A stretch of DNA of 64,000 bases from Candidatus Aphodocola excrementigallinarum (GTDB lineage Bacteria > Bacillota_I > Bacilli_A > RF39 > UBA660): the NCBI GenBank assembly GCA_018714855.1, contig DVMT01000015.1, positions 785 to 64,784 of the forward strand, written 5' to 3'. A program made the translations under genes and the position numbers. Shown piece after piece: positions 5,330 through 59,151 of the stretch (position 1 is its first letter; each line of letters opens with the position of its first letter). The notes under the pieces were generated by a model that saw only the letters and a program-made list of their open reading frames with translations, ran no database searches and was not told where the DNA came from.

Positions 5330-6574
5330 CTACTTTTTTAACTTTCTTATAATTTTTCTTACATCCATACCCAAATTAAACATAGCATACCAAAACTTAC
5401 TTATTACTAAGTCATATTCTCCAACAAGTTCTAATACGTTTGGATTAAATTTTGATTTAAACGTTGATAAATGATCTTCTAAAGATCCATCAACACCACC
5501 TAAATCACAGTAATCACAAGCTTTATCCAAACAATAACATAACCTATAAAACATAAGCCCATTTGTTATTTTTAAAGAAGGAAGGATTTTTGTGTTTGTT
5601 CCGGCATATAAGAAAGATGCGGTTTTAATGCCCGAGTTACAAGTAGGCATCATAACGATGGTTGCTCCCGCTAAAGGTTTTAAACCATACTCTTTTTTCA
5701 CTTCTTCTGCTTCTTTTATTTGCTTTTGACAAAACTCTTTTTTATTTTCATTTTCTTTCATATCTTCTTTTAAAAATTTAATATATTTATTAATGTCAAC
5801 TCTTGCAAAAAATAAAACAGCGTTATTAGGAAAACATTCCATTAGTTTTTTAAAATATTTTTCACTTCTTAAATTAATATGTTGTCTTTGTTCAGTACAA
5901 TGTAATACACTTACCAAATCTTTTACGTCTTTTATATCAGTAGAAAAACTAAATTCTACCCCTCTTTGTTCTTGATAATTACCTATATAATTTCTGGTGT
6001 TTTTTGGGAAGGTTCTCCTTAAGGTTTCTTTGTCATAAAAATTACCATCTTTATCTTTCAAAGAAATAGCCATTGTATATCTTGGCTGTATATATGCATT
6101 TACTTCCTTTTTAAAACCAGCATGTTTAAAACCTATGTTTTCTAAATTTTTTATGATTTCTTTAGTATCATTAGTATATAATTTATTAACTTCAATATTT
6201 TTGTTCTTTTTAATATTTTGAATGTTATCTTCATTAAAGCAAATAAATGGATCTATCTTTATATCAATCGCACCATCTTTTTTTGCATAGCTTACTATGT
6301 TATTAACGAATTCTTTTAATAATTTTTTGTTTTTATAATCAATTACAAAACCCCTTGGTACGTAATACAATTTTTTGTTTAAAAATAATTTTCTTTTTAA
6401 TATCATTGCGCTTGCCTTAAGCTCATCGTTTTCATACATTCCAACAAAGTCATGTTCCCAAGCTGTCTTTACTTTTGCCCAAGACGTTGTTTGCATAAAT
6501 GAAGTCGATGGAAAACTAGTGACAAATTTATCAAATTCTTTTTCATCTATATTTGTTTTAAAAACATATTTCAT
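5330..6574 (-). CDS. FemAB-family peptidoglycan peptide-bridge aminoacyltransferase (FemX/MurM-like)
   Basis: About 410 aa. The N-terminus (FMQTTSWAKVK...LYYVPRGFVIDY) resembles FemAB family proteins. Confidence 0.55.
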   Translation of the reverse strand: MKYVFKTNIDEKEFDKFVTSFPSTSFMQTTSWAKVKTAWEHDFVGMYENDELKASAMILKRKLFLNKKLYYVPRGFVIDYKNKKLLKEFVNNIVSYAKKDGAIDIKIDPFICFNEDNIQNIKKNKNIEVNKLYTNDTKEIIKNLENIGFKHAGFKKEVNAYIQPRYTMAISLKDKDGNFYDKETLRRTFPKNTRNYIGNYQEQRGVEFSFSTDIKDVKDLVSVLHCTEQRQHINLRSEKYFKKLMECFPNNAVLFFARVDINKYIKFLKEDMKENENKKEFCQKQIKEAEEVKKEYGLKPLAGATIVMMPTCNSGIKTASFLYAGTNTKILPSLKITNGLMFYRLCYCLDKACDYCDLGGVDGSLEDHLSTFKSKFNPNVLELVGEYDLVISKFWYAMFNLGMDVRKIIRKLKK

Positions 6575-46687: not shown

Positions 46688-47353
46688 TTAATATTTTTTT
46701 ATAAAATATGATTTCTTTTGTTGATTTTTATTACTTATAATCATATTTAACAAATCTCTAATGCTATGTTCATCATCTACTATATAATAATCTATTCCTG
46801 CATTTAAAGCACCCATTTTATCGCTTTTAATACTATCTCCTATCATAATGCAATCTTCTTTGTTTGTATCTCCAATCGCTAGTTCAAATGATTCTAAATC
46901 TGGTTTCATTGCATCTTCACCTGCAACAATCTTATCTATGTATTCATATAAGCTGGTTCGTTTTAATCTCGGTATTTGAGTTCCACTAAACCAACTAGTA
47001 AGAATTACTATATCTTTGTTATTCGTTTTTAAATAATCGAATAACTCTATAACTCCATCAACCACTTTATCTTTTATAGTTTTCCCATTATGAATCATCC
47101 AACCTTTTATTACTTCTTCACTTACACTAAATCCGTAACTTTTAAAATAATCACTTAATGTTTTGAAATCATATTTTGGAAATTCTAATTCATATTTATT
47201 TAATATAAGTTGTTTTTGTTTAAAAAACTCTTCTTGTTCTTCTAAAGGTATATTTCTTCTTAAAAAATCATCTTCTTTAGACCAATCAGGAATCAATAAC
47301 GTATAGTCTAAATCAAATATATACTTTTTATAATTTTTCATTACTTTCCTCAT
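46688..47353 (-). CDS. HAD-superfamily hydrolase
   Basis: Motif I FDLDYTL and motif IV GDSIKSD. Confidence 0.7.
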   Translation of the reverse strand: MRKVMKNYKKYIFDLDYTLLIPDWSKEDDFLRRNIPLEEQEEFFKQKQLILNKYELEFPKYDFKTLSDYFKSYGFSVSEEVIKGWMIHNGKTIKDKVVDGVIELFDYLKTNNKDIVILTSWFSGTQIPRLKRTSLYEYIDKIVAGEDAMKPDLESFELAIGDTNKEDCIMIGDSIKSDKMGALNAGIDYYIVDDEHSIRDLLNMIISNKNQQKKSYFIKKY

Positions 47354-47740: not shown

Positions 47741-50236
47741 CTATTTGCCACAGCAATTTTTATACTTTTTTCCACTCCCGCACGGACAAGGATCATTTCT
47801 TCCTATTTTCTTTGATTTTTTAGAAACCTGCTTAACTACTTTTTCACTTCCTGAATTAGCATTTCCTTTTACCTGTTTAACTTCTAAGTTCTGTCTTATT
47901 TCTGCTTTTAGTAAATATAAAGTAATATCTTTATTTATTCTGTCTAACATGTTGTCAAACATTTCAAAGCCTTCCCTTATATAAGCTTGAAGTGGATCTT
48001 CATTAGCATATCCTCTTAATGACACACCTTCTCTTAAATGATCCATTGTGTTTATGTGTTCCATCCAGTAATTATCTATAACTCTTAAAGAAATAGCCTT
48101 TTCAAAGTCATTTCTTATTTCTATAGGTAATTCTTTTATCTTATTTTCATATTCAGTAATTACCTTGTTTTGAATAACTTCAATTATTTCATTCATTTCT
48201 TTATTAAGTATTTCAGATAATTTCAAGTTTGAATGATTAAGCAAGTTTTCATTAACATATTCAACTATCTCATTTGCATCTTTTTCAGTTATAACACCTT
48301 TTTCGTTAGTATGCTTTCTTACCATTAAATCAATGTGATCTTTAATGGTATTTAATACCATGTCGTGAATATCATCGTTATCTAATATTTCATTTCTTTT
48401 TGCATACATTATTTCACGGTGTTTACCCATTACATCATCGTATTGTAATAAGTGTTTACGAGCATCAAAGTTATTTCCTTCAACTCTTTTTTGGGCAGTT
48501 TCAACAGATCTTGTAATGGTCTTACTACGCATGTTTCTTTCACTATCTAATCCTGCCATAGCAAGAATAGATTTAAACCTATCAGTTCCAAAACGAACCA
48601 TTAAATCATCTTCAAACGATACAAAGAACTGACTAAATCCTGGATCTCCTTGACGTCCAGAACGTCCTCTTAACTGGTTATCGATACGACGAGATTCATG
48701 TCTTTCAGTTCCAATTACGCATAAGCCACCGAGTTCTTTTACACCTTCACCTAATTTAATATCAGTACCACGACCAGCCATGTTAGTTGCGATTGTAACC
48801 GCTCCTTTTTCACCAGCCTTTGCAATTATTTCAGCTTCTCTTGCGTTGTTTTTAGCATTTAATACTTCATGTTTAATGTGTGCTTTTTTTAGCATACCAC
48901 TTATTAATTCACTTGTTTCAATTGCTATTGTACCAACTAAAACCGGTTGGCCAGTTTCATGTCTTTTTTTGATTTCATTTACTATAGCTTTATATTTTTC
49001 TTCTTTTGTTGAATAAATTAAGTCTGCGGCATCTACTCTTATTACAGGTAAATTAGTTGGAATTTCTATAACAAACATGTTATATATGTTTCTAAATTCT
49101 TCCTCTTCAGTTTTTGCTGTACCAGTCATACCTGATAATTTTTCATACATCCTAAAGTAATTTTGGAATGTAATAGTTGCAAGTGTTTTTGTTTCTTCTT
49201 CTATTTGAACGTTTTCTTTTGCTTCTATTGCCTGATGCAAGCCTTCAGAAAATGCTCTACCTGGCATTAATCTTCCAGTAAATTGATCTACTATTATAAC
49301 TTTACCTTCTTGAACAACGTAATCAACGTCATTATGCATCGTATAATTTGCTTTTAAGGCTTGGTTAATATGATGAACTAAAGCAGTGTTTGAAATATCA
49401 TACAAATTACCTACCCTAAAATATCTCTCTGCTTTTTCAGTTCCTGCATCCGTTAAAGTTATATCTTTTGTTTTTTCATCAATCGTATAATCTTCATTTT
49501 CTTTTAATGTCTTAACATACCTATCGGCATCTTTATAAAGATTTGCAGATTTCATTACGCCACCGGAAATAATCAAAGGAGTTCTTGCTTCATCTATTAA
49601 AACCGAGTCAACCTCGTCTATAATCGCAAAATTAAGAGGCCTTTGTACCCTGTTTTCTTTATTTACAACCATGTTATCTCTTAAATAATCAAATCCAAGT
49701 TCATTATTGGTTGAATATAAAATATCACAGTTATATGCTTCTTTTTTTTCTTTTGCGGACATTTGTCTTAAGTTAACACCAACACTAAGTCCCAAAAACT
49801 CATATATCTTTCCCATCCAATTAGCATCACGGGTTGCTAAGTATTCGTTTACCGTTACAACGTGAACACCTTTTTCAGTTAATGCATTTAAATAAGCTGG
49901 CATAACACAAGTTAATGTTTTACCTTCACCAGTTTTCATTTCTGCTATGTTACCAAAATGAATAGCAAGTGCACCTAATACTTGTACATAAAAAGGTTTT
50001 TCTCCTATTACACGATAAGCTGCTTCCCTAACCAAAGCAAAAGCATCAGGTATTAAGTCATCTAATGTCTCTCCATTAGCTAAACGTTTTTTTAATTTTT
50101 TAGTGCATCCTTGTAACTGTTTATCAGTCATCTTTTTGTATTTGTCATCTAAAGCAAATACCTCATCAGCTATTTGTTTAAATCTATCTAACTCTTTGTA
50201 TTCATGATCAAATATTCTTTTTAAAAATTTTAACAT
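47741..50236 (-). CDS. secA: Preprotein translocase ATPase SecA
   Basis: DEAD motor motifs and a C-terminal zinc-binding CPCGSGKKYKNCCG. The start is probably the ATG giving MLKFLKRIFD; the track ORF begins 4 codons upstream, directly abutting the RBS. Confidence 0.93.
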   Translation of the reverse strand: MLKFLKRIFDHEYKELDRFKQIADEVFALDDKYKKMTDKQLQGCTKKLKKRLANGETLDDLIPDAFALVREAAYRVIGEKPFYVQVLGALAIHFGNIAEMKTGEGKTLTCVMPAYLNALTEKGVHVVTVNEYLATRDANWMGKIYEFLGLSVGVNLRQMSAKEKKEAYNCDILYSTNNELGFDYLRDNMVVNKENRVQRPLNFAIIDEVDSVLIDEARTPLIISGGVMKSANLYKDADRYVKTLKENEDYTIDEKTKDITLTDAGTEKAERYFRVGNLYDISNTALVHHINQALKANYTMHNDVDYVVQEGKVIIVDQFTGRLMPGRAFSEGLHQAIEAKENVQIEEETKTLATITFQNYFRMYEKLSGMTGTAKTEEEEFRNIYNMFVIEIPTNLPVIRVDAADLIYSTKEEKYKAIVNEIKKRHETGQPVLVGTIAIETSELISGMLKKAHIKHEVLNAKNNAREAEIIAKAGEKGAVTIATNMAGRGTDIKLGEGVKELGGLCVIGTERHESRRIDNQLRGRSGRQGDPGFSQFFVSFEDDLMVRFGTDRFKSILAMAGLDSERNMRSKTITRSVETAQKRVEGNNFDARKHLLQYDDVMGKHREIMYAKRNEILDNDDIHDMVLNTIKDHIDLMVRKHTNEKGVITEKDANEIVEYVNENLLNHSNLKLSEILNKEMNEIIEVIQNKVITEYENKIKELPIEIRNDFEKAISLRVIDNYWMEHINTMDHLREGVSLRGYANEDPLQAYIREGFEMFDNMLDRINKDITLYLLKAEIRQNLEVKQVKGNANSGSEKVVKQVSKKSKKIGRNDPCPCGSGKKYKNCCGK

Positions 50237-50320
50237 AGTTATTTTCATCTCCTAAAAAACATTGTAACAAAAAAAAGAAAATAATTAAAGTGTATTAATT
50301 ACTTTCTTTAAAGTTTATTA

Positions 50321-50851
50321 CTATTTTGTTTCAATGATTCCGTAATTACCATCTTTTCTTACGTACAAAACGCATATAGAATCAGTATCAACGTTTTTAA
50401 ATACAAAGAATGAATGACCTAACATTTGCATTTGAAGTATAGCTTCTTCCTCATCCATTGGTTTCATTTCTATTTTTTTTCTTTTTAAAACCTTTGAATC
50501 ATCATCTTCTAAGCTGTCTTCTAAGTCTAATTCAAAGTTTTGAATTATATTTTTCTTATTTCTTGCATTAATCTTAGTCTTATTCTTTCTTATTTGTCTT
50601 TCTAATTTATCTACCGTAAGATCAATTGCAGCGTATAAATCATCGTGAGACTCCTCACTTCTTAAGGTATAATGCATAGCGGGTACTGTTATTTCAATCT
50701 TTTGTTCTTTTCCACGAACCTTAATCACCACGTTTGCATTAATTTGATCAGGATTTTCGAAATACTTATCTAGTTTACCTATCTTATCTTCAATATAAGA
50801 TCTTATTGATGGAGTAATTTCCACCTTTTCTCCACGAATATTATATTTCAT
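50321..50851 (-). CDS. hpf: Ribosome hibernation promoting factor (long form)
   Basis: MKYNIRGEKVEITPSIRSYIEDKIGKLDKYF...; 176 aa. Confidence 0.85.
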   Translation of the reverse strand: MKYNIRGEKVEITPSIRSYIEDKIGKLDKYFENPDQINANVVIKVRGKEQKIEITVPAMHYTLRSEESHDDLYAAIDLTVDKLERQIRKNKTKINARNKKNIIQNFELDLEDSLEDDDSKVLKRKKIEMKPMDEEEAILQMQMLGHSFFVFKNVDTDSICVLYVRKDGNYGIIETK

Positions 50852-50902
50852 AATATCATCCTCCTATATACAAATTATACCATAATATAAAAACAAATGC
50901 TA

Positions 50903-51124
50903 CTAGCAAACAGTAGCATTTGATACTTCTTTGACATTGATAGCTTGTAATCCTTTTTCCGTTTCTAATAATTCATATTCAACTATCTGTCCTTCTGATA
51001 AGCTTTTATATCCGTCTTGCTTAATAGCAGTATAATGAACGAATATATCTTCATCATTTTCGCCTTCGATAAAACCGTAGCCCTTTTCATTGTTGAACCA
51101 TTTGATTCTACCCACCTTAGTCAT
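50903..51124 (-). CDS. Cold-shock protein (CspA family)
   Basis: RNP1 motif [12 protein letters not shown] and RNP2 VFVHY. Confidence 0.85.
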
Positions 51125-51433
51125 ACCTTACACCTCACTTCCCTTATTGCTTACACTTCTACTATAACTCACAATCTAAAGAATAAGCAACAATTATCGT
51201 CCAAGAAATTTCGACAAATTTCGCGGCGAGCTTCTTTATAATACTAAAATATATAGTTAAGAACTTGTTTTTTATCTAAAATGTCGTTTTTTGTGTATAA
51301 AAGGTTATTTTTTTATCTTTTTTAACATATAATTTTAATTTAAATATTAATATATATCTTTATATTTAAAAAATATTTTTAATAATACTTTAAAATGTAT
51401 AATAAATCATGAAATAAATAAACGAGGTGCAGT

Positions 51434-52039
51434 ATGAAAAAACGTTTATTAAGCTCTATAAGAGGACAAATCAAAAAACAATATCCTAAATATTCAGAAG
51501 ATAAACTTGACGAAATAATGTATGGTGTAGAAGGTATTTATCTTACCATAACAAAAACAATAATAATTTTTGCTTTAGCTTTAATCCTTGGAATATTTAA
51601 AGAATTAATTATATTACTTATAGCATTTAACTTTATAAGATTATTCGCATTTGGCATGCACGCTAATAAAAGTATTACTTGTTTGATATTTTCAAGCCTA
51701 GTATTTTTAACTGGTGCATTCTTATGTAAATATATAACAATAAGTAGAGAAGTTTTATATGTTCTTTATTTAATGGTGTTAGTAATCATGATCAAATATG
51801 CACCAGCCGATACTAAAAAAAGACCTTTATTAAAAAGTAATAAAAGACTTAGATTCAAAATTATATCAATTTTAATGACTATAATATACTTTATAATAAC
51901 GATATTAATAGATAACAATTTGATAATAAATAGTTTAATAATTGGACTTATAATAGAATGTATATTAATTTTACCTATAACATATAAAGCATTTAAAATG
52001 CCTTATAAAAATTATTTAAAATATGGTTTAAGCACTTAG
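51434..52039 (+). CDS. agrB: AgrB-family accessory gene regulator B (AgrD-processing membrane peptidase)
   Basis: About 200-aa polytopic protein with the conserved RLFAFGMHANKSITCLIFS region (catalytic His and Cys). RBS GAGGTG. Confidence 0.7.
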   Translation: MKKRLLSSIRGQIKKQYPKYSEDKLDEIMYGVEGIYLTITKTIIIFALALILGIFKELIILLIAFNFIRLFAFGMHANKSITCLIFSSLVFLTGAFLCKYITISREVLYVLYLMVLVIMIKYAPADTKKRPLLKSNKRLRFKIISILMTIIYFIITILIDNNLIINSLIIGLIIECILILPITYKAFKMPYKNYLKYGLST

Positions 52040-52085
52040 ATTTAGGTGGTTAAATAAATCTAGGAAAGGAGTAGTAAAGAAGTAA

Positions 52086-52211
52086 ATGAAAGCAGTATTA
52101 ATTTCAATTGTATCAGCATTAGGAGCTTTGGTAGCAGCAACATCTACAGCAGGATGTATTGTAGTATTTGTAGATGAACCAGAAATGCCAAAGGCTATGT
52201 TAAATAAATAA
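52086..52211 (+). CDS. agrD: AgrD-like autoinducing-peptide precursor, 41 aa
   Basis: Hand translation: MKAVLISIVSALGALVAATSTAGCIVVFVDEPEMPKAMLNK. It has an amphipathic leader, a Cys-plus-4 core (CIVVF) and the acidic DEPEMPK recognition tail. It lies between agrB and a convergent AgrC-like kinase. Confidence 0.6.
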   Translation: MKAVLISIVSALGALVAATSTAGCIVVFVDEPEMPKAMLNK

Positions 52212-52247
52212 AAGAAAAAGTTTTAATAAAATTACTTTTTCTTTTTT
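52211..52247. terminator. Bidirectional terminator between the convergent agrD and agrC-like genes
   Basis: AGAAAAAGT-(12 nt)-ACTTTTTCT hairpin with flanking A and T runs. Confidence 0.5.
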
Positions 52248-53548
52248 GTTTGTCTATTTTTAGTTTTAATGGTCAGTTTAGTTACATAATATTCATCTTC
52301 AAGAGAGTTTTCTATTTCAAATATATTACTATTTTCAACAATATCTTTTACTAATCTTAATCCATATCCATGACCAGAACCTTTTGTTGTAAAACCAGTG
52401 CCTATTTTATCCATGTCAATTTTTCCTTTATATGTATTATAAATACTAAATGTAACTGAATTTGTTTTTTTAACAACATCAATTATAATCTTTTTTTCTT
52501 TACTTTTCTTACATGCATCAATAGCATTATCAAATAATACACCAAGCACCTTAGTAATATTTTTATAAGTTTCTGTTCCTAAAGTATCAAGTCTTATTTT
52601 AACACCTGATTCAACGTTTAACTCATGTTTTATATTTTCATCATCCATCGTAGATAACTTATAATAAAGTAAACCTTTTATACCACCGGCTGGAAACTTA
52701 TTTAACTGACTAATTAAATAACTACTATGAGTCTTCTTTGAATCTTTTATTACAGAATCTAAATATTCAATTAACTTAGGAGAATTCATTTGTGCATAAC
52801 CACGTATTACCATTAATTGATTCTTAAATTCATGATTAGCTTTACCTTGATCAGTTATTATCTTTTCATATTTAGTTACGTGATTTAACATGTTTTTATA
52901 CTCATCTTTAATTTTGTCATACTTAAATTCATTTCTAATTATTATCGTTATTATTAAAATAACACATGCCATAAATAAAATATTAATATAATAATTAGAT
53001 TTTAAAATTAATTCAAAGCCATTTTTTAAAGCAATTAAATAAAGAATAACAACAAAAACATACAAATAATTTATTAACTTTTTATTTTTAGTAAATAAAG
53101 TTATCTCATTTTTTACTATTTTTCTTACAAATGGTAATTTAATGAAAATTACTGCAAACAAAGAAATAAGAACATTTGCAATTAAATTATAAAAATTGTT
53201 ATTTACGATATCTACAGAATTTATACCTATAATAACTAGTCCTACCGTTATTATAAGTTCTGAAATCACAAAAATTAAACCCGTATTAAAAGCATATAAA
53301 ATTACATTTTTATCTCTTATATCTAATGTAAAATATAAATTAAGAAAAATAACTAATAAAAACACTAAAAATCTTATATTATTTGGTATAAACAAAAATC
53401 CAATAAAACAGTAAATTAACATGATAATTATAAATCTAAGTTTATCTGTTTTTTTATCCATATTTTTTTGACTAAAAATAATATATGATGTTGCAATTGC
53501 CTGAAAAATACTAGCAATAATACAAACTATTATACTTTCCATACTCAT
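52232..53548 (-). CDS. agrC: AgrC-like (HPK10/LytS-type) sensor histidine kinase
   Basis: 6-7 N-terminal TM helices, H-box ANHEFKNQL, and GHKL ATPase motifs (DNAIDA...GSGHGYGL). Confidence 0.75.
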   Translation of the reverse strand: MSMESIIVCIIASIFQAIATSYIIFSQKNMDKKTDKLRFIIIMLIYCFIGFLFIPNNIRFLVFLLVIFLNLYFTLDIRDKNVILYAFNTGLIFVISELIITVGLVIIGINSVDIVNNNFYNLIANVLISLFAVIFIKLPFVRKIVKNEITLFTKNKKLINYLYVFVVILYLIALKNGFELILKSNYYINILFMACVILIITIIIRNEFKYDKIKDEYKNMLNHVTKYEKIITDQGKANHEFKNQLMVIRGYAQMNSPKLIEYLDSVIKDSKKTHSSYLISQLNKFPAGGIKGLLYYKLSTMDDENIKHELNVESGVKIRLDTLGTETYKNITKVLGVLFDNAIDACKKSKEKKIIIDVVKKTNSVTFSIYNTYKGKIDMDKIGTGFTTKGSGHGYGLRLVKDIVENSNIFEIENSLEDEYYVTKLTIKTKNRQTKKKK

Positions 53549-54255
53549 AATAACTCCCTCAATTCTTTCTTAAAATTTCTTGATAAATAATCTGTACTAG
53601 AATCATTAATAAAATATATAATGTTATTTTTAAAATCAACGCTTTCAATTTTATCTTTGTTTACAAAGCATGCTCTATGTGTTTGAACAAATCTGGAGTC
53701 TAATTTTTTAATTACCTCACTTAAACTTTCTCTTATTGGATACTCATCATCCGTTGTTACAATCGTTGTTTTCTCTAATGCATTATCTCTATATACATAT
53801 ATAATATTATCTAATTTAACGTGATGAATTTCCTTATTGCATCTAAAACTTATTATTTTTTTATTATTTAGTTTTCCTATTACCATGTTTATGGTATCGG
53901 TTAATCTTTCTTCATAATTATCAAATTTAGATATGAAATCTAATATTAATAGTTTTTGCTTTAATAAAGTTAACTCTAGTTCTTCATGAGACGTTAGTAT
54001 TATTATAATGCTATCCCAGTCTACTTTTCTTATTTCTTTTGCAATGTCTATACCTGATTTATTTGGAAGTTCTAAATCAAGTATGTAGATATTTATATCT
54101 GATGGAGTGTTAATTAAGTTTTTTAATTTTACTGAGTATTTTTCAAAGGTATAAATATTATAGTTAAAATCATATGGCATAGCTATTTTAGATATAACTT
54201 TTTCATTTATATCTCTAACGTACTTATTGTCATCACAAATAATAAAATTAATCAT
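53545..54255 (-). CDS. agrA: LytTR-family response regulator (AgrA-like)
   Basis: Receiver domain (IIICDD...D) plus a C-terminal LytTR DNA-binding domain. Overlaps the kinase gene by 4 nt. Confidence 0.75.
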   Translation of the reverse strand: MINFIICDDNKYVRDINEKVISKIAMPYDFNYNIYTFEKYSVKLKNLINTPSDINIYILDLELPNKSGIDIAKEIRKVDWDSIIIILTSHEELELTLLKQKLLILDFISKFDNYEERLTDTINMVIGKLNNKKIISFRCNKEIHHVKLDNIIYVYRDNALEKTTIVTTDDEYPIRESLSEVIKKLDSRFVQTHRACFVNKDKIESVDFKNNIIYFINDSSTDYLSRNFKKELRELL

Positions 54256-54289
54256 TACTACTCACCCGATTTTAATTATATCATAAATT

Positions 54290-54317
54290 TAAAAAAAAGA
54301 ATTCAAATGAATTCTTT
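54290..54317. terminator. Rho-independent terminator at the mbl 3' end
   Basis: AAGAATTCA / TGAATTCTT inverted repeat with a poly-A/T flank. Confidence 0.45.
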
Positions 54318-55293
54318 AAGTTAAACTATCTAATATAATTCCGGTTCCTTCAGCCACACAAGTAAGTGGACTATCAGCTATTTTAGTTGGGACTTTTAAT
54401 TCTTTTTCAATTAACTTATCCAAGCCTTCTATTAAGGCTCCGCCACCGGTTAGTACTATCCCGTTTTCTATTATATCAGCGGATATTTCTGGTTCTATTT
54501 TTTCTAGCACCATTTTTGCACCATGAATTATCATGTAAACACTGTCTTTTATAGCTTCTTTTACTTCGCTTGAAGTTATTGTAATAGTTTTTGGAAGACC
54601 ATTTATTAAATCTCTTCCCCTAACTTGCATTTTCTTTTCTTTTTCCTTTTCTAATACGGTACCTATTTTTATTTTTATTTTCTCTGCAGTTACTTCCCCA
54701 ACTAACAATTTATATTTATTTTTTATATATTTAATAATATCTACATCAAAGGTATTACCAGCAACTTTAATAGATTCACTATAAACGATTCCGTTTAAAC
54801 TTAGTACCGCAATGTCTGTTGTTCCACCACCGATATCAATAACCATATTACCACTTGGACTTGATATTTCAAGGCCTGCTCCTACGGCTGCTACTTTTGG
54901 TTCTTCTTCTACATAAACCTTTTTTGCACCTGTTCTTTCTGCTACTTCTCTTATTGCGTTTTTTTCTACTTGAGTTATGTTAGAAGGGCAGCATATAACA
55001 ATTCTTGGTCTTGAAAAAATGGTTCTTCCTTTTATCTTTTTTATAAAATAGTCAAGCATAATTTCAGTTTTATCAAAATCTGCTATAACTCCATCTTTTA
55101 AAGGCCTTATTGCGATAACACTTCCAGGCGTTCTACCTAACATATCATGAGCTTTCTTTCCTATTGCAAGTACTTTTCCACTATCTTTATCAATTGCAAC
55201 AACGCTAGGTTCACAAAGAACTATACCCTCACCCTTAACGTATATTAGTATATTGGCAGTTCCTAAATCAATTCCTATATCTTTATTTCTCAC
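54316..55293 (-). CDS. mbl: Rod-shape-determining protein MreB/Mbl paralog
   Basis: Actin-fold motifs GIDLGTAN, DIGGGTTD. It sits immediately downstream of spoIIID, as in Bacillus and Clostridium. Confidence 0.85.
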   Translation of the reverse strand: MRNKDIGIDLGTANILIYVKGEGIVLCEPSVVAIDKDSGKVLAIGKKAHDMLGRTPGSVIAIRPLKDGVIADFDKTEIMLDYFIKKIKGRTIFSRPRIVICCPSNITQVEKNAIREVAERTGAKKVYVEEEPKVAAVGAGLEISSPSGNMVIDIGGGTTDIAVLSLNGIVYSESIKVAGNTFDVDIIKYIKNKYKLLVGEVTAEKIKIKIGTVLEKEKEKKMQVRGRDLINGLPKTITITSSEVKEAIKDSVYMIIHGAKMVLEKIEPEISADIIENGIVLTGGGALIEGLDKLIEKELKVPTKIADSPLTCVAEGTGIILDSLT

Positions 55294-55295
55294 TT

Positions 55296-55553
55296 TTATC
55301 CTTTTGAGTATTTTAACTTAGTTTTTTCACCACCGTTTAAATGTTTAATTTTATAATGATAATTTAATATTTTACTTACTTCATCATATAAATTTAAATC
55401 TATGTTTTTAAGTCTTTTACTTAAATCATTGTGAACGGTTGATTTACTTACTTTAAAATACTTTGATATTTCTCTTATTGTTTTACTTGTTTTAATTATA
55501 TAATTAGCTTCTTTTAATACTCTTGCTTTAATATTATAAGGCAAGTTTTTCAT
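55296..55553 (-). CDS. spoIIID: Stage III sporulation protein D
   Basis: HTH motif SKSTVHNDLSKRL and the C-terminal HLNGGEKTKLKY, both typical of SpoIIID. Confidence 0.8.
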   Translation of the reverse strand: MKNLPYNIKARVLKEANYIIKTSKTIREISKYFKVSKSTVHNDLSKRLKNIDLNLYDEVSKILNYHYKIKHLNGGEKTKLKYSKG

Positions 55554-55590
55554 CTCCTTTATAAATTATATAATTTAAAACTATATCTTA

Positions 55591-56241
55591 TTAATTATCC
55601 GTTAATTCTTTTACGGATTTATCATAATATTTTTCAGGATTGATTACCGTGCCGTTTTTATACATTTCAAAGTGTAATCCATTTTTTACGTCTTTATTTA
55701 GTTCGCATGTACCACTTTTTGCAATTACTTGTCCTTGGGTAATAGTATCTCCTTTTTTAACTGATACGTCAGATAAACACTGATATAACATAACAACTTC
55801 ACTTGAGTTTCTTATTTCTATAGTATTACCAAGTAAAGAATCTTCTTTAACATCTGTTACTGTTCCAGATAAAGATGATAAAACATCAAAGGACTCATCA
55901 GACTTATAATCAACACCAGAATTTTGCATATAAATTCCTTCGTGATAAATTATTGAATTTTGTTGCTCTTCTTCTGATGCATCTTCTTCATAAAAATTTT
56001 TATAAACACTTATGTTTTCTGCTTGATAAGGTCTTTGTATTTTTTCATCTTGATTTACTACTGGATAATAGCTGTCAAATATATAATCATTAACATAAAC
56101 ATAATCATTATCCATATTTGAAGCTTTCATTGTTTGATTAGCAGTAAGTACCCCTGCAGTTACTACAAATGCTACAAATAAGACACTAATAATCGTTACT
56201 TTTACAAATGGTTTTAACTTTCTTTTTTTCATATTTTTCAC
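55591..56241 (-). CDS. spoIIQ: SpoIIQ-like M23/LytM-domain membrane protein
   Basis: N-terminal TM, a degenerate LytM domain (...GQVIAKSG...GLHFEMYKNG), and the gene order spoIID-spoIIQ-spoIIID-mbl. Confidence 0.55.
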   Translation of the reverse strand: MKNMKKRKLKPFVKVTIISVLFVAFVVTAGVLTANQTMKASNMDNDYVYVNDYIFDSYYPVVNQDEKIQRPYQAENISVYKNFYEEDASEEEQQNSIIYHEGIYMQNSGVDYKSDESFDVLSSLSGTVTDVKEDSLLGNTIEIRNSSEVVMLYQCLSDVSVKKGDTITQGQVIAKSGTCELNKDVKNGLHFEMYKNGTVINPEKYYDKSVKELTDN

Positions 56242-57906: not shown

Positions 57907-59151
57907 TTATTTTTTTAATTTTATTATTAATTGATACATTTCTTCAAAATCAAATTCTTCTATTTCTATATCAGAACCTTTGCTTTTTAATTCTTCTACT
58001 AAAGATTTTATTTTATCAACATCATCAGCTACTAATTTTTTATCTTCACTAGGTTCTTGATGTGAATCTGTTTTTTCTTCTTTAGGTTCTTCTTTTTCAC
58101 GTTCTTCTTTTGTATCATCAGAATCTAAATCCATTATTTCTAATGAATCTGGTTCTGTGTAAGTATCATCTAAACCTAAGTCATTTAAATTAGATTCATT
58201 ATCAGAAGTTAAACCATCAGCATCATCTTTATTGGTTGATAACTCTTGGTTAGTAATTGGCTCATTACTTTCCTGTTCTTCTGTTGACTCGTTATTTTCC
58301 GATGTATTAAATTCTTCTTTATTATCTTCTGTTGCTATTTTTTCTTCTTCGTTATTTAAAGAAGTATCACTTGAAGCTGAATTAACGGTTTCTAAAGGAG
58401 AATTATACATGTTTTCATAATGTAAATCACTAGGGTTATTAGCTACGTTAATAGATGGGTTATAGTCATTAGAAATATTGTTATTTAAATTATTAATTGG
58501 GTTATAAGAATTATTAACGTTATTTAAATTTTCAAAATTCTGATTATAGTTAGTGTTATTTTGATTATTCATAAACATATTTTCTGTTGGATTATTAATA
58601 GGTATATTATTAATATTTTGATTTAGATTATAGTTTGGTACACTATTAAAATTAGAAAAATTATTAAAATTATCATTATTTAATTCATTATAATTTGATT
58701 GATTTGGAATGTTATAAGAATTAGGATTAATGTTAGGCATTTGATTTGGGTTATTTATATTAGCGTTATTAAAATTATTTATGTTTAAATTACCATTATC
58801 ATATGCTTCTAATGGATCATTGTTATTTGGCAAAGATTCTGGCATTATGTTCATTGGTCCTAAAACATCCATTGTTGGTGCCGAAGATACAGTTGCTTCA
58901 TTTAAATTTTTTATTTCTCCTAAATCAGGTGGAATATCAACGTTATTATTTGGTGTTGTTAAATAAGGATTATTAACTAATTGATTATTCATTTGGTTTA
59001 AATTATTATTTTGTTGCCATGGCTGGCTTCCTTGATATATACCTTGATTATTTATGCTTTGATTTTGATAGTCCTTATTTAATTGGTTATTAAAATTATT
59101 ATTTATGTTATTGTTCATATTATTATTAAAGTTTTGGTTATTATCAAACAT
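57907..59151 (-). CDS. Asn/Gln/Pro-rich low-complexity protein with an acidic C-terminal region
   Basis: 414-aa ORF; the first 250 aa or so are dominated by N with frequent Q and P; the C-terminal 120 aa or so are D/E/K-rich. Confidence 0.5.
   Translation of the reverse strand: MFDNNQNFNNNMNNNINNNFNNQLNKDYQNQSINNQGIYQGSQPWQQNNNLNQMNNQLVNNPYLTTPNNNVDIPPDLGEIKNLNEATVSSAPTMDVLGPMNIMPESLPNNNDPLEAYDNGNLNINNFNNANINNPNQMPNINPNSYNIPNQSNYNELNNDNFNNFSNFNSVPNYNLNQNINNIPINNPTENMFMNNQNNTNYNQNFENLNNVNNSYNPINNLNNNISNDYNPSINVANNPSDLHYENMYNSPLETVNSASSDTSLNNEEEKIATEDNKEEFNTSENNESTEEQESNEPITNQELSTNKDDADGLTSDNESNLNDLGLDDTYTEPDSLEIMDLDSDDTKEEREKEEPKEEKTDSHQEPSEDKKLVADDVDKIKSLVEELKSKGSDIEIEEFDFEEMYQLIIKLKK

What the first reader, a model, noticed from the sequence alone, without database searches (positions are those of the whole stretch)
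51434..54255. agr-type quorum-sensing locus with an unlisted 41-aa AgrD-like precursor; predicted thiolactone core CIVVF
agrB (51434..52039) has the conserved AgrB catalytic region (FGMHANKSITC). It is followed by a 126-nt ORF (52086..52211, missing from the track) encoding MKAVLISIVSALGALVAATSTAGCIVVFVDEPEMPKAMLNK. This reproduces the AgrD architecture: an amphipathic leader, a Cys followed by four hydrophobic residues (the macrocycle), and an acidic recognition tail (compare S. aureus ...YSTCDFIM-DEVEVPKELTQL). An AgrC-like HPK10 kinase and a LytTR response regulator are encoded convergently just downstream, sharing a bidirectional terminator. The locus lies directly beside the spoIIID-mbl and spoIID sporulation genes, which raises the possibility that it regulates sporulation. 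The AIP sequence appears novel.
Basis: partly seen in the sequence, partly recalled or inferred. Interest (0 to 1): 0.65.

Follow-up and report, generated by a model that had tools for sequence, protein, structure and literature searches.

The report
Peptide quorum-sensing (agr) locus, gut bacterium
This is a genuine but ordinary agr-type peptide quorum-sensing locus of an uncultured chicken-gut bacterium, already labelled in public databases; the signal is more likely a six-residue ring (CIVVFV) than the proposed CIVVF, and strains of the same species carry different signal/receptor variants.

Summary
agrB (51434-52039), a 41-aa agrD (52086-52211) and convergent agrC/agrA (52232-54255) are all present. 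They pass the family tests: PF04647; TIGR04223 20.8 bits against a cutoff of 19; HATPase_c_5; REC+LytTR. The small ORF follows agrB in 39 of 39 related loci. Its leader and DEPxMPK tail are conserved and its core is hypervariable.

1. The ORF is not unknown. It is NCBI HIU39958.1, "cyclic lactone autoinducer peptide" of Candidatus Aphodocola excrementigallinarum.
2. The Cys lies six residues before the invariant DEP. This is the register of the MS-verified six-residue C. acetobutylicum AIP (CVLVTL|YEPKMP). The predicted ring is therefore CIVVFV, not CIVVF.
3. The leader is an uncharged, signal-peptide-like segment ending T-x-G|C. This suggests a tail-less AIP that could rearrange to a homodetic cyclopeptide.

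New findings:
- Same-species contigs with 99-100% identical flanks carry at least four AgrD cores, each with a diverged AgrC sensor. This is the pherotype pattern known from S. aureus.
- Conserved 21-bp-period direct repeats lie a fixed 93-95 nt upstream of the agrB -10. They are candidate AgrA boxes.
- agrCA has its own terminator-insulated promoter.

The sporulation link rests on adjacency and on precedent in clostridia only. This is a new member of a known kind, of modest interest.

The parts
51277..51313 (+). Two imperfect direct repeats with a 21-bp period: unit 1 at 51277-51292 (TAAAATGTCGTTTTTT) and unit 2 at 51298-51313 (TAAAAGGTTATTTTTT). Candidate LytTR (AgrA) binding boxes.
   Evidence: They form a conserved island in a 29-species alignment of the csp-agrB spacer. 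A51279/A51300 and G51283/G51304 are invariant, and the block is gap-free. The pattern occurs once in the 64-kb window against 0.22 expected. Homologous TCTGAAATnG repeats with the same 21-bp period occur in distant loci. The distance to the agrB -10 is fixed at 93-95 nt in 29 of 29 species. Binding by AgrA is inferred, not shown.
51396..51403 (+). Extended -10 element (TGTATAAT) of the putative agrBD promoter. The GAGGTG ribosome-binding site follows at 51424-51429.
   Evidence: TAaAAT is conserved in 29 of 29 aligned upstream regions, often preceded by TG. ACGAGGTG lies before the ATG. Assignment as the promoter is inferred.
51434..52039 (+). agrB: polytopic membrane cysteine peptidase that removes the AgrD C-terminal tail and forms the macrocycle.
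   Evidence: PF04647, E=7.7e-37. His76 and Cys83 align with S. aureus H77/C84 and are invariant in 41 of 41 sequences, as are R69, G74, P124, K129 and P131. NCBI name: 'accessory gene regulator B family protein', HIU39957.1.
52086..52211 (+). agrD: 41-aa precursor MKAVLISIVSALGALVAATSTAG-CIVVFV-DEPEMPKAMLNK. It comprises a signal-peptide-like leader (residues 1-23), the predicted core (residues 24-29, nt 52155-52172) and an acidic, Pro-rich recognition tail (residues 30-41).
   Evidence: TIGR04223 20.8 bits, above the cutoff of 19. Conserved after agrB in 39 of 39 loci. G23, C24, D30, E31 and P32 are invariant, and there are 26 distinct C-x5 cores among 28 species. NCBI HIU39958.1, 'cyclic lactone autoinducer peptide'.
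52210..52245 (.). AT-rich hairpin flanked by an A-run and a T-run. Probable bidirectional intrinsic terminator shared by agrBD and agrCA; it overlaps the last codons of agrC.
   Evidence: dG -10 (+ strand) and -9.4 (- strand) kcal/mol, z = -3.2 and -3.15. A hairpin plus T-run is present at the same place in 21 of 21 loci with different stem sequences. The simple terminator scan did not call it, because it has fewer than 3 G-C pairs and a 12-nt loop.
52232..52933 (-). agrC, cytoplasmic histidine-kinase module (aa 206-438). H-box ANH(239)EFKN, with the His239 codon at 52832-52834; HATPase_c_5 domain.
   Evidence: PF14501 E=3.9e-15 and SPOB_a-type DHp. The only PDB relatives are S. aureus AgrC 6e52 (E=1e-13) and 4bxi. 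The module is 94-100% identical among same-species alleles.
52934..53548 (-). agrC, polytopic membrane sensor domain (aa 1-205, about 6-7 hydrophobic segments). This is the hypervariable receptor part.
   Evidence: Hydropathy peaks. Median identity is 50% against 69% for the kinase module across 23 species; in L005 the figures are 49% and 96%. Within the species, DNA identity here is 63-85% while the flanks are 99-100%.
53545..54255 (-). agrA: response regulator with REC and LytTR DNA-binding domains. Its stop overlaps the agrC start by 4 nt.
   Evidence: PF00072 and PF04397. NF046049 AgrA is the best NCBIfam hit, though far below the equivalog cutoff. The C-terminal domain matches AgrA LytTR structures 3bs1/4xqq and ComE 4cbv.
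54275..54283 (-). Extended -10 element (TGATATAAT) of the separate agrCA promoter.
   Evidence: TGnTATAAT followed by AAAATCGGGTGAG (RBS) is conserved upstream of agrA in 21 of 21 loci.
54296..54317 (-). Hairpin AAGAATTCA-loop-TGAATTCTT followed by a T-run: terminator-like element ending the mbl transcript, just upstream of the agrCA promoter.
   Evidence: A GAATTC-stem hairpin plus T-run is conserved across loci. In the window alone it is weak (dG -7.5, z -0.7), so some read-through from mbl cannot be excluded.

Best explanation
This is a functional agr-type autoinducing-peptide quorum-sensing system of Candidatus Aphodocola excrementigallinarum, an uncultured chicken-gut Bacillota lineage. 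It is organised as two convergent operons, agrBD and agrCA, as in Clostridium acetobutylicum.

Proposed mechanism:
1. AgrD is made as a 41-aa precursor (ORF shown).
2. The membrane peptidase AgrB, using His76 and Cys83, cuts between Val29 and Asp30. It then cyclises the new C-terminus onto Cys24, giving a six-residue macrocycle, CIVVFV (inferred from register; P about 0.75, against 0.2 for the five-residue CIVVF).
3. The uncharged, signal-peptide-like leader is probably removed right before the Cys, at the conserved T-x-G|C (inferred; P about 0.5). That would give a tail-less AIP. In clostridia such AIPs rearrange spontaneously (S to N acyl shift) into a homodetic cyclic hexapeptide with a free thiol.
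4. The secreted peptide is sensed by the polytopic sensor domain of AgrC. AgrC autophosphorylates on His239 and phosphorylates AgrA.
5. AgrA's LytTR domain is proposed to bind the 21-bp-period direct repeats at 51277-51313 and so raise agrBD transcription as positive feedback (inferred; P about 0.6).
6. agrCA is expressed from its own extended -10 promoter.

The locus is polymorphic within the species. At least four AgrD cores (CIVVFV, CVFVFV, CVFIFV, CFYIWL) are paired with diverged AgrC sensors on otherwise 99-100% identical chromosomes. These are pherotypes, as in S. aureus agr groups. The downstream regulon is unknown. Control of sporulation is plausible by clostridial precedent but has no direct support here (P about 0.25).

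The overall confidence of 0.85 refers to the core claim, a functional agr-type system with intraspecific pherotypes. The sub-steps carry the individual probabilities given above.
For: Family membership of all four genes. Catalytic His/Cys and other AgrB residues invariant in 41 of 41 sequences. agrD follows agrB in 39 of 39 loci. Per-column entropy shows an invariant G-C and D-E-P bracketing a variable core, with 26 distinct cores in 28 species.

Ring register: the nucleophile is always 6 residues before [DE]EP. This is the same as C. acetobutylicum AgrD...GKCVLVTL|YEPKMPEEL. That AIP was confirmed by HRMS as a six-membered macrocycle without an N-terminal extension, rearranged to a lactam. 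It is listed as [CVLVTL], with agrBD and agrCA as separate operons, in the 2025 primer.

Leader: there are no charged residues between position 3 and the Cys. Position -3 is T/S, position -2 is variable and position -1 is an invariant G.

Receptor co-diversification: sensor 49% against kinase 96% in L005. Same-species contigs show secA DNA at 99.0-99.8% and the intergenic region at 100%, but agrD at 86-88% and the sensor at 63-85%.

Direct repeats: conserved, 21-bp period, and fixed at 93-95 nt from the -10 in 29 of 29 species. Operon architecture: conserved terminators and a conserved agrCA promoter. Synteny is conserved across about 30 species.
Against: There is no chemical or expression evidence, because the organism is uncultured. 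The ring-size call rests on register homology with one MS-verified six-ring system, plus five-ring precursors recalled from memory (S. aureus, S. epidermidis, Listeria). AgrB could instead measure from the Cys.

The N-terminal cleavage site is unknown. Three distant relatives (L037 and L039 with -STL|C; L027) do not have a small residue at -1.

The direct repeats lie about 85-130 nt upstream of the conserved -10, further than the AgrA boxes at S. aureus P2/P3. Their sequence (RAAAnG...) does not match the S. aureus AgrA consensus. Some distant loci have a second repeat pair closer to the promoter, so which repeats bind AgrA is unresolved.

The equivalog-level NCBIfam models for AgrB, AgrC and AgrA are all far below cutoff. 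The proteins are family members, not orthologue-grade matches to the staphylococcal proteins. No RNAIII-like effector or target gene was identified.
Confidence: 0.85

Rival explanations
1. It is the same agr system, but AgrB cleaves after Phe28. This would give the canonical five-residue thiolactone ring CIVVF, probably with a short exocyclic tail (for example AGCIVVF or STAGCIVVF), and Val29 would be the first residue of the discarded tail.
For: Five-residue rings are by far the commonest (table in PMC12312760; PMC4916163). Position 28 is strictly aromatic (F/W), as is the C-terminal ring residue of many staphylococcal AIPs.
Against: The invariant tail motif starts at D30, not V29. Position 29 varies (I/V/L/F, entropy 1.64) like a core residue. 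The C-to-EP register equals that of the MS-verified six-ring C. acetobutylicum AIP. The residues before the Cys are conserved across species rather than varying with the core, which argues against an exocyclic tail that determines specificity.
Confidence: 0.2
2. The AgrD leader is a true lipoprotein (SPII) signal peptide. Cys24 would be diacylglycerol-modified by Lgt and the leader cut by Lsp. The product would then be a membrane-anchored or lipidated peptide rather than, or in addition to, a diffusible AIP.
For: 35 of 42 family members, including the window's, satisfy the PROSITE-type lipobox rule (no charged residue in the h-region, [AGS] at -1, Cys at positions 15-35, K in the n-region). 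The rule was recalled from memory and applied. A 2026 paper reports that a subset of AIP precursors carry canonical SPII signals and says the fate of single-Cys examples is 'presently not clear' (PMC13056109).
Against: There is only one Cys, and AgrB needs its thiol for macrocyclisation. Relatives with Ser (L034) or Thr (L027) at the same position, or with Leu at -1 (L037, L039), keep the DEP tail and the agrB/agrC/agrA partners but cannot be lipidated. The hypervariable core paired with a co-varying membrane receptor is the signature of a diffusible ligand. The T-x-G|C motif fits signal peptidase I equally well.
Confidence: 0.07
3. The locus is a decaying or orphan remnant: the genes are present but no longer signal, and the small ORF is fortuitous.
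For: The genome belongs to a lineage often labelled Mollicutes/Tenericutes in MAG records, where gene loss is common. spoIIID is lost at this site in several relatives. One relative (L029) has a truncated duplicate agrC.
Against: All four ORFs are intact in the window and in about 30 species. The catalytic and phospho-acceptor residues are conserved. The leader and tail of AgrD are under clear purifying selection while the core and sensor diversify together, even within one species. Promoter, RBS and terminators are conserved.
Confidence: 0.02

Closest known systems
Clostridium acetobutylicum agr system (agrBD + agrCA; AIP = cyclo/thiolactone CVLVTL, R6T0)
   Same: It has two separate operons, agrBD and agrCA. 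The AgrD register is identical, Cys-x5-[Y/D]-E-P-x-M-P, which implies a six-residue ring. A tail-less AIP is likely. The system regulates sporulation and granulose in a spore-former, and the window locus sits next to spoIID/spoIIID.
   Different: In the window the operons are convergent and share a terminator. The AgrD leader is an uncharged, signal-peptide-like segment, whereas the C. acetobutylicum leader has 10 charged residues. No LanM-like CA_C0082 homologue follows the cluster; the neighbours are csp and mbl. The tail begins DEP rather than YEP.
Staphylococcus aureus agrBDCA (groups I-IV)
   Same: The four-component logic is the same. The AgrB catalytic His/Cys have identical spacing. 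The AgrC kinase module is the closest solved structure. AgrA has a LytTR domain. There is intraspecific polymorphism with a hypervariable block covering agrD, the AgrC sensor and part of agrB. The direct-repeat geometry has a period of about 21 bp.
   Different: S. aureus has a single agrBDCA operon with a divergent RNAIII. Here there are two convergent operons and no RNAIII-like RNA was detected. S. aureus has five-residue rings with 2-4-residue tails and an amphipathic leader. The window's AgrD fails the staphylococcal Pfam AgrD model. The repeats lie much further from the -10.
Clostridial tail-less AIPs that rearrange to homodetic cyclopeptides (Ruminiclostridium cellulolyticum Rc-AIP1 CWFWSY; Molloy et al. 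2021)
   Same: The core is a six-residue hydrophobic/aromatic macrocycle. The predicted N-terminal Cys would permit an S to N acyl shift. Rc-AIP1 controls endospore formation.
   Different: Nothing is known chemically for the window's peptide. The producing lineage is classified as Bacilli incertae sedis, not Clostridia.
Clostridium perfringens agrBD (AIP CLWFT)
   Same: It is in the TIGR04223-type AgrD family with a tail-less AIP. From memory, its leader is also hydrophobic and signal-peptide-like.
   Different: C. perfringens has a five-residue ring and lacks a cognate agrCA next to agrBD. Its AgrD is nearly invariant among strains, unlike the polymorphism seen here.

Membership tests
agr-type (AgrBDCA) cyclic-peptide quorum sensing | AgrB-family membrane peptidase (PF04647) | tested here: met
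   E=7.7e-37, 126.9 bits against a cutoff of 23, covering 7-181 of 185 model positions.
agr-type (AgrBDCA) cyclic-peptide quorum sensing | AgrB catalytic His and Cys (S. aureus H77/C84), 7 residues apart | tested here: met
   His76 and Cys83 align with H77 and C84 and are invariant in 41 of 41 sequences. The invariance across 40 natural sequences is a tool result.
agr-type (AgrBDCA) cyclic-peptide quorum sensing | Small AgrD precursor immediately downstream of agrB, matching an AgrD profile | tested here: met
   TIGR04223 20.8 bits, above the cutoff of 19. Present in 39 of 39 loci. Named as such by NCBI.
agr-type (AgrBDCA) cyclic-peptide quorum sensing | Cys/Ser nucleophile followed by a variable hydrophobic core and a conserved acidic, Pro-containing C-terminal recognition tail | tested here: met
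   C24 is invariant in the close clade (Ser in L034, Thr in L027). There are 26 distinct cores in 28 species. D30-E31-P32 are invariant and P35 is nearly so.
agr-type (AgrBDCA) cyclic-peptide quorum sensing | AgrC-type (HPK10) receptor kinase: polytopic sensor plus DHp His plus GHKL (HATPase_c_5) | tested here: met
   PF14501 E=3.9e-15. About 6-7 hydrophobic segments in residues 1-205 and an H-box with His239. The only PDB relatives are S. aureus AgrC. The NCBIfam AgrC equivalog scores 68 against a cutoff of 500, so it is not an equivalog.
agr-type (AgrBDCA) cyclic-peptide quorum sensing | AgrA-type response regulator with a LytTR DNA-binding domain | tested here: met
   PF00072 and PF04397. 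The C-terminal domain matches AgrA 3bs1/4xqq and ComE 4cbv.
agr-type (AgrBDCA) cyclic-peptide quorum sensing | LytTR-type imperfect direct repeats (period about 21 bp) in the autoinduced promoter region | tested here: inconclusive
   Conserved 21-bp-period repeats lie upstream of agrB, at a fixed 93-95 nt from the -10. They are further upstream than in S. aureus and differ in sequence from its consensus. None are found upstream of agrCA. Binding has not been tested.
agr-type (AgrBDCA) cyclic-peptide quorum sensing | Production of a secreted (thio)lactone or cyclic peptide that activates the cognate kinase | not testable with these tools
   This requires LC-MS and reporter assays, and the organism is uncultured.
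Staphylococcal AgrD (Pfam PF05931) | Score above the Pfam gathering threshold | tested here: not met
   12.6 bits against a cutoff of 22.7. It is not filed under this narrower family.
Six-membered-ring AIP subgroup (C. acetobutylicum type) | Cys placed six residues before the conserved x-E-P-x-x-P tail | tested here: met
   CIVVFV|DEPEMP against CVLVTL|YEPKMP. The register holds in 39 of 39 loci.
Six-membered-ring AIP subgroup (C. acetobutylicum type) | LanM-like CA_C0082 homologue immediately downstream of the agr cluster | tested here: not met
   The neighbours are csp/hpf/secA on one side and mbl/spoIIID/M23/spoIID on the other. There is no LanM-like gene.
Bacterial lipoprotein (SPII) signal peptides | n-region Lys/Arg, uncharged h-region, and a lipobox [..][..][AGS]-C with the Cys at positions 15-35 | tested here: met
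   The regex form of the PROSITE rule (recalled from memory) is satisfied by the window's AgrD and by 35 of 42 relatives. This is a pattern match only. SignalP was not available and lipidation is not testable.

The most novel reading that the evidence does not exclude
In this AgrD family the single Cys is both the lipobox/signal-peptidase +1 residue and the AgrB nucleophile. The leader would be a genuine Sec signal peptide. The general secretion and signal-peptidase machinery (SPI or the lipoprotein pathway), rather than a dedicated protease such as MroQ, would cut exactly at G|C. That would release a tail-less six-residue thiolactone that self-rearranges into a homodetic cyclic hexapeptide, or alternatively yield a lipid-anchored signal. 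Combined with the at least four co-existing pherotypes, this would describe a distinct maturation route for AIPs in uncultured gut Bacillota.
Probability: 0.12. Interest if true: 0.65.

Novelty: new member of a known kind. Interest (0 to 1): 0.33.

Why it matters
It shows that an uncultured, small-genome gut lineage (Ca. Aphodocola and about 30 related species from chicken, rabbit, human and other gut metagenomes) keeps a complete agr system at a fixed chromosomal site. The system is strongly diversifying, with several pherotypes inside one species. This gives concrete, synthesisable candidate signals: cyclo(CIVVFV), and the allelic CVFVFV, CVFIFV and CFYIWL. These could be used to probe or manipulate organisms that cannot yet be grown. 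It also provides a natural test set for two open questions in AIP biology: what sets ring size (five or six residues), and how leaders with signal-peptide/lipobox-like ends are removed. It does not reveal a new kind of system.

Tried and rejected
(1) Pfam's staphylococcal AgrD model is below threshold. I used TIGR04223 instead.
(2) A PDB sequence search with AgrB found no relative at E<=1, so there is no structural anchor for the cleavage register.
(3) I tried to obtain five-ring precursor sequences from the literature to calibrate the register. A full-text search for DEVEVPKELTQL found nothing. The Listeria and C. perfringens papers give the AIPs but not the precursor strings in text.
(4) I looked for this family in the supplements of the large human-microbiome RiPP survey, but no supplements are held.
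(5) I searched the window for further copies of the direct-repeat motif as a possible regulon. Only the agrB site was found.
(6) An Rfam scan for an RNAIII-like or other RNA in 50200-55700 gave only a sub-threshold cspA hit inside the csp CDS.
(7) The generic promoter scan is uninformative in this AT-rich DNA (36 sites found against 39.7 expected). I relied on cross-species conservation instead.
(8) I considered that the repeats might serve the divergent csp promoter. I rejected this as the main reading, because csp has its own conserved TTGaaa/TATAgT promoter near 51160-51192 (read from the alignment), and the repeats are phase-locked to the agrB -10.
(9) I considered co-transcription of agrCA with spoIIID-mbl. 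This is disfavoured by the conserved hairpin plus T-run and the separate extended -10. It is not excluded, because the hairpin is weak in the window.

Full report
OBSERVATION.

The four ORFs exist exactly as described:
- agrB, 51434-52039 (+)
- a 41-aa ORF, 52086-52211 (+), translating to MKAVLISIVSALGALVAATSTAGCIVVFVDEPEMPKAMLNK
- a 438-aa kinase, 52232-53548 (-)
- a 236-aa regulator, 53545-54255 (-)

Profile searches give the following:
- AgrB matches PF04647 at E=7.7e-37.
- The kinase has HATPase_c_5/HATPase_c and a SpoOB-like DHp domain.
- The regulator has REC+LytTR.
- The small ORF scores 20.8 bits on NCBIfam TIGR04223 'AgrD family cyclic lactone autoinducer peptide' (cutoff 19).
- It fails the staphylococcus-specific Pfam AgrD model (12.6 < 22.7).

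IDENTITY OF THE ORGANISM AND PRIOR ANNOTATION.

The exact 41-aa sequence and the exact AgrB are already in NCBI/UniRef. The peptide is HIU39958.1, 'cyclic lactone autoinducer peptide'. AgrB is HIU39957.1, 'accessory gene regulator B family protein'. Both are from Candidatus Aphodocola excrementigallinarum, classified as Bacilli incertae sedis. The ORF is gene-called on at least 20 public contigs with the same neighbours.

(i) Conservation next to agrB. A genome-collection scan with AgrB returned 39 loci from uncultured gut 'Bacilli/Mollicutes/Tenericutes' MAGs and Clostridium sp. CAG:594. An agrD-like ORF follows agrB in 35 of them when ATG starts are required. The other four also have it: one is cut by a contig end and three use non-ATG starts. 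The total is 39 of 39.

(ii) Catalytic residues. In a 41-sequence alignment, His76 and Cys83 of the window's AgrB align with S. aureus H77 and C84 and are invariant, as are R69, G74, P124, K129 and P131.

Both refutation criteria are rejected.

ANATOMY OF AgrD.

Among 28 ungapped 41-aa orthologues, M1, S7, G13, A17, A18, G23, C24, D30, E31 and P32 are invariant. Positions 25-27 and 29 are variable, position 28 is F or W, and 26 distinct C-x5 hexamers occur. This is the classic AgrD pattern: a conserved leader, a hypervariable core and a conserved recognition tail.

RING SIZE.

In all 39 loci the nucleophile lies exactly six residues before [DE]EP. It is Cys in 37, Ser in L034 and Thr in L027.

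C. acetobutylicum AgrD reads ...GKCVLVTL|YEPKMPEEL (supplement of PMC10301443). Its AIP was shown by HRMS/MS to be a six-membered macrocycle without an N-terminal extension (PMC8251862). It is tabulated as [CVLVTL] (PMC12312760).

The window's CIVVFV|DEPEMP has the identical register. The five-ring precursors have one residue fewer between the Cys and the tail motif.

I therefore predict the hexapeptide ring CIVVFV (P about 0.75) rather than CIVVF (P about 0.2).

LEADER.

The leader has no charged residue between K2 and Cys24. It ends with T/S at -3, a variable -2 and an invariant Gly at -1. That is a signal-peptide c-region, not an amphipathic helix. For comparison, C. acetobutylicum's leader has 10 charged residues.

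It also satisfies the lipobox rule in 35 of 42 relatives (rule recalled from memory). A 2026 paper notes that some AIP precursors have SPII signals and that the fate of single-Cys cases is unresolved (PMC13056109).

The Ser, Thr and -STLC- variants keep the tail and the partner genes but cannot be lipidated. For that reason I regard macrocyclisation as the conserved role of this residue.

The conserved G|C junction suggests a tail-less AIP. In clostridia such AIPs undergo an S to N acyl shift to give a homodetic cyclopeptide. This step is inferred (P about 0.5).

RECEPTOR AND REGULATOR.

AgrC has about 6-7 hydrophobic segments in residues 1-205 and an H-box, ANH(239)EFKN. Its only PDB relatives are S. 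aureus AgrC, 6e52 and 4bxi. AgrA's C-terminal domain matches the AgrA (3bs1, 4xqq) and ComE LytTR structures.

CO-DIVERSIFICATION AND PHEROTYPES (NEW).

Across 23 species the sensor domain is at a median 50% identity, against 69% for the kinase module. In the nearest species, L005, the figures are 49% and 96%. The DNA identity profile there dips to 56-59% exactly over the sensor-coding segment.

I then retrieved contigs that encode exactly the same Hpf protein. These are the same species: secA DNA is 99.0-99.8% identical, csp is 100%, and the csp-agrB spacer is 99.7-100%. Yet they carry different AgrD cores:
- CIVVFV: window and L048
- CVFVFV: L046, L049, L051
- CVFIFV: L050
- CFYIWL: L047

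In these contigs agrD DNA is at 86-88% and the sensor segment at 63-85%. agrA stays at 98.5-99.9% and the kinase module at 94-100%. L047 and L049 also have a variable patch in agrB (51700-51950).

This is the same architecture as the S. aureus agr hypervariable region that defines groups I-IV. It is strong indirect evidence that the system is functional and under diversifying selection.

REGULATORY DNA.

A 29-species alignment of the csp-agrB spacer shows three features:
- Two direct repeats, T[AG]AAAgGTnnTTTTTT (51277-51292) and t[AG]AAAgGtaattt (51298-51313). Their invariant A and G are exactly 21 bp apart.
- A conserved (TG)nTAaAAT -10 at 51396-51403.
- A conserved GAGGTG RBS.

The repeat pattern occurs once in the window, against 0.22 expected. 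Distant loci have homologous TCTGAAATnG repeats with the same period, and sometimes a second pair nearer the promoter.

The distance from repeat unit 2 to the -10 is 93-95 nt in 29 of 29 species, although the intervening sequence is poorly conserved. The -10-to-ATG distance, by contrast, varies from 29 to 45 nt. The repeats are therefore phase-locked to the agrBD promoter.

Their geometry is that of LytTR sites. Their distance from the promoter is unusually long, however, and binding is untested, so I rate 'AgrA boxes' at about 0.6.

Upstream of agrA there are no repeats. Instead there is a conserved GAATTC-stem hairpin plus T-run after mbl, followed by TGnTATAAT and a GGGTGA RBS. agrCA is thus its own, probably constitutive, unit.

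The agrD/agrC hairpin (52210-52245; dG -9.4 to -10, z about -3.2) is conserved as a structure in 21 of 21 loci, with differing stem sequences.

CONTEXT AND THE SPORULATION IDEA.

The synteny secA-hpf-csp | agrB agrD > < agrC agrA-mbl-(spoIIID)-M23-spoIID holds in about 28 close species. SpoIIID, SpoIID and the M23 peptidase are confirmed by Pfam.

However, spoIIID is absent from this position in about 11 of the 28, and agrCA is insulated from mbl.

There is real precedent for agr control of sporulation in C. acetobutylicum, R. cellulolyticum and clostridia generally. The idea is therefore reasonable, but here it rests on adjacency only (P about 0.25).

COMPARISON AND VERDICT.

The locus works like, and passes the testable membership criteria of, the agr family. 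It is closest in operon organisation and AgrD register to the C. acetobutylicum six-ring type. Compared with that type, it lacks the associated LanM-like gene and has a signal-peptide-like leader.

It resembles S. aureus in having intraspecific pherotypes. It is not a staphylococcal-type AgrD (Pfam model not met).

It is a new member of a known kind and is already annotated publicly. The added value lies in three points:
- the corrected ring prediction
- the pherotype polymorphism in an uncultured gut lineage
- the single-Cys, lipobox-like leader, which touches an open question

Interest is modest (0.33).

Noticed in passing
L001, L003, L004, L009, L011, L013, L019, L022, L023, L024, L038 (between mbl and the M23 peptidase gene); compare window 55296-55553: spoIIID is present between mbl and the M23 peptidase gene in the window and in about 17 relatives. 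In about 11 related species it is absent from that position (only 18-44 nt separate mbl and M23), although spoIID and M23 remain. This may indicate patchy decay or relocation of sporulation genes in this lineage.
   Followed up: partly
window 51200-51245: A strongly conserved non-coding block lies between the csp promoter and the agr direct repeats. It contains AAATTTCG twice, a GC-rich GGCGAGCT (in about 25% GC DNA) and TATAATAC. It could be a second promoter facing agrB (TCGACA-20 nt-TATAAT) or a regulator site. It remains unexplained.
   Followed up: partly
L027 4590-4709 and L034 764-883: Two distant relatives replace the AgrD Cys at the same -6 position. L034 has Ser, giving a lactone type as in GBAP or S. 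pseudintermedius. L027 has Thr (ATPWLWF|DEPE). As far as I know, no characterised AIP uses Thr, so this is either a Thr-lactone or a degenerate precursor.
   Followed up: no
L029 6434-8873: agrC is tandemly duplicated. A full 437-aa copy is followed by a nearly identical 365-aa copy that is truncated in the ATPase domain and lies between agrD and the intact agrC.
   Followed up: partly
L036 5776-6466 and L038 about 5775-6335: About 0.6 kb of extra, ORF-less DNA is inserted between agrD and agrC in two species, where the other loci have only a 20-80 nt terminator spacer.
   Followed up: partly
L047 7761-9531 and L046 8011-8664 (same species as the window; corresponds to window about 46688-47353): There is strain-level variation next to secA. 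L047 carries a 308-aa unknown protein plus phage-type integrase genes in place of the HAD-family hydrolase. In L046 the hydrolase gene is split into 41-aa and 136-aa pieces.
   Followed up: no
window 57907-59151 (-): A 414-aa ORF between rpiB and gidB has no Pfam match at E<=0.001.
   Followed up: no
window 50977-51049 (-): There is a sub-threshold Rfam hit to the cspA thermoregulator (24.6 bits against a gathering score of 78) inside the csp coding sequence. It probably reflects coding-sequence similarity included in that model rather than a regulatory RNA.
   Followed up: no
window 50894-50922: A perfect 11-12 bp palindromic hairpin with T-runs on both strands lies between hpf and csp. It is the strongest terminator-like site in the region and overlaps the 3' end of csp.
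   Followed up: no
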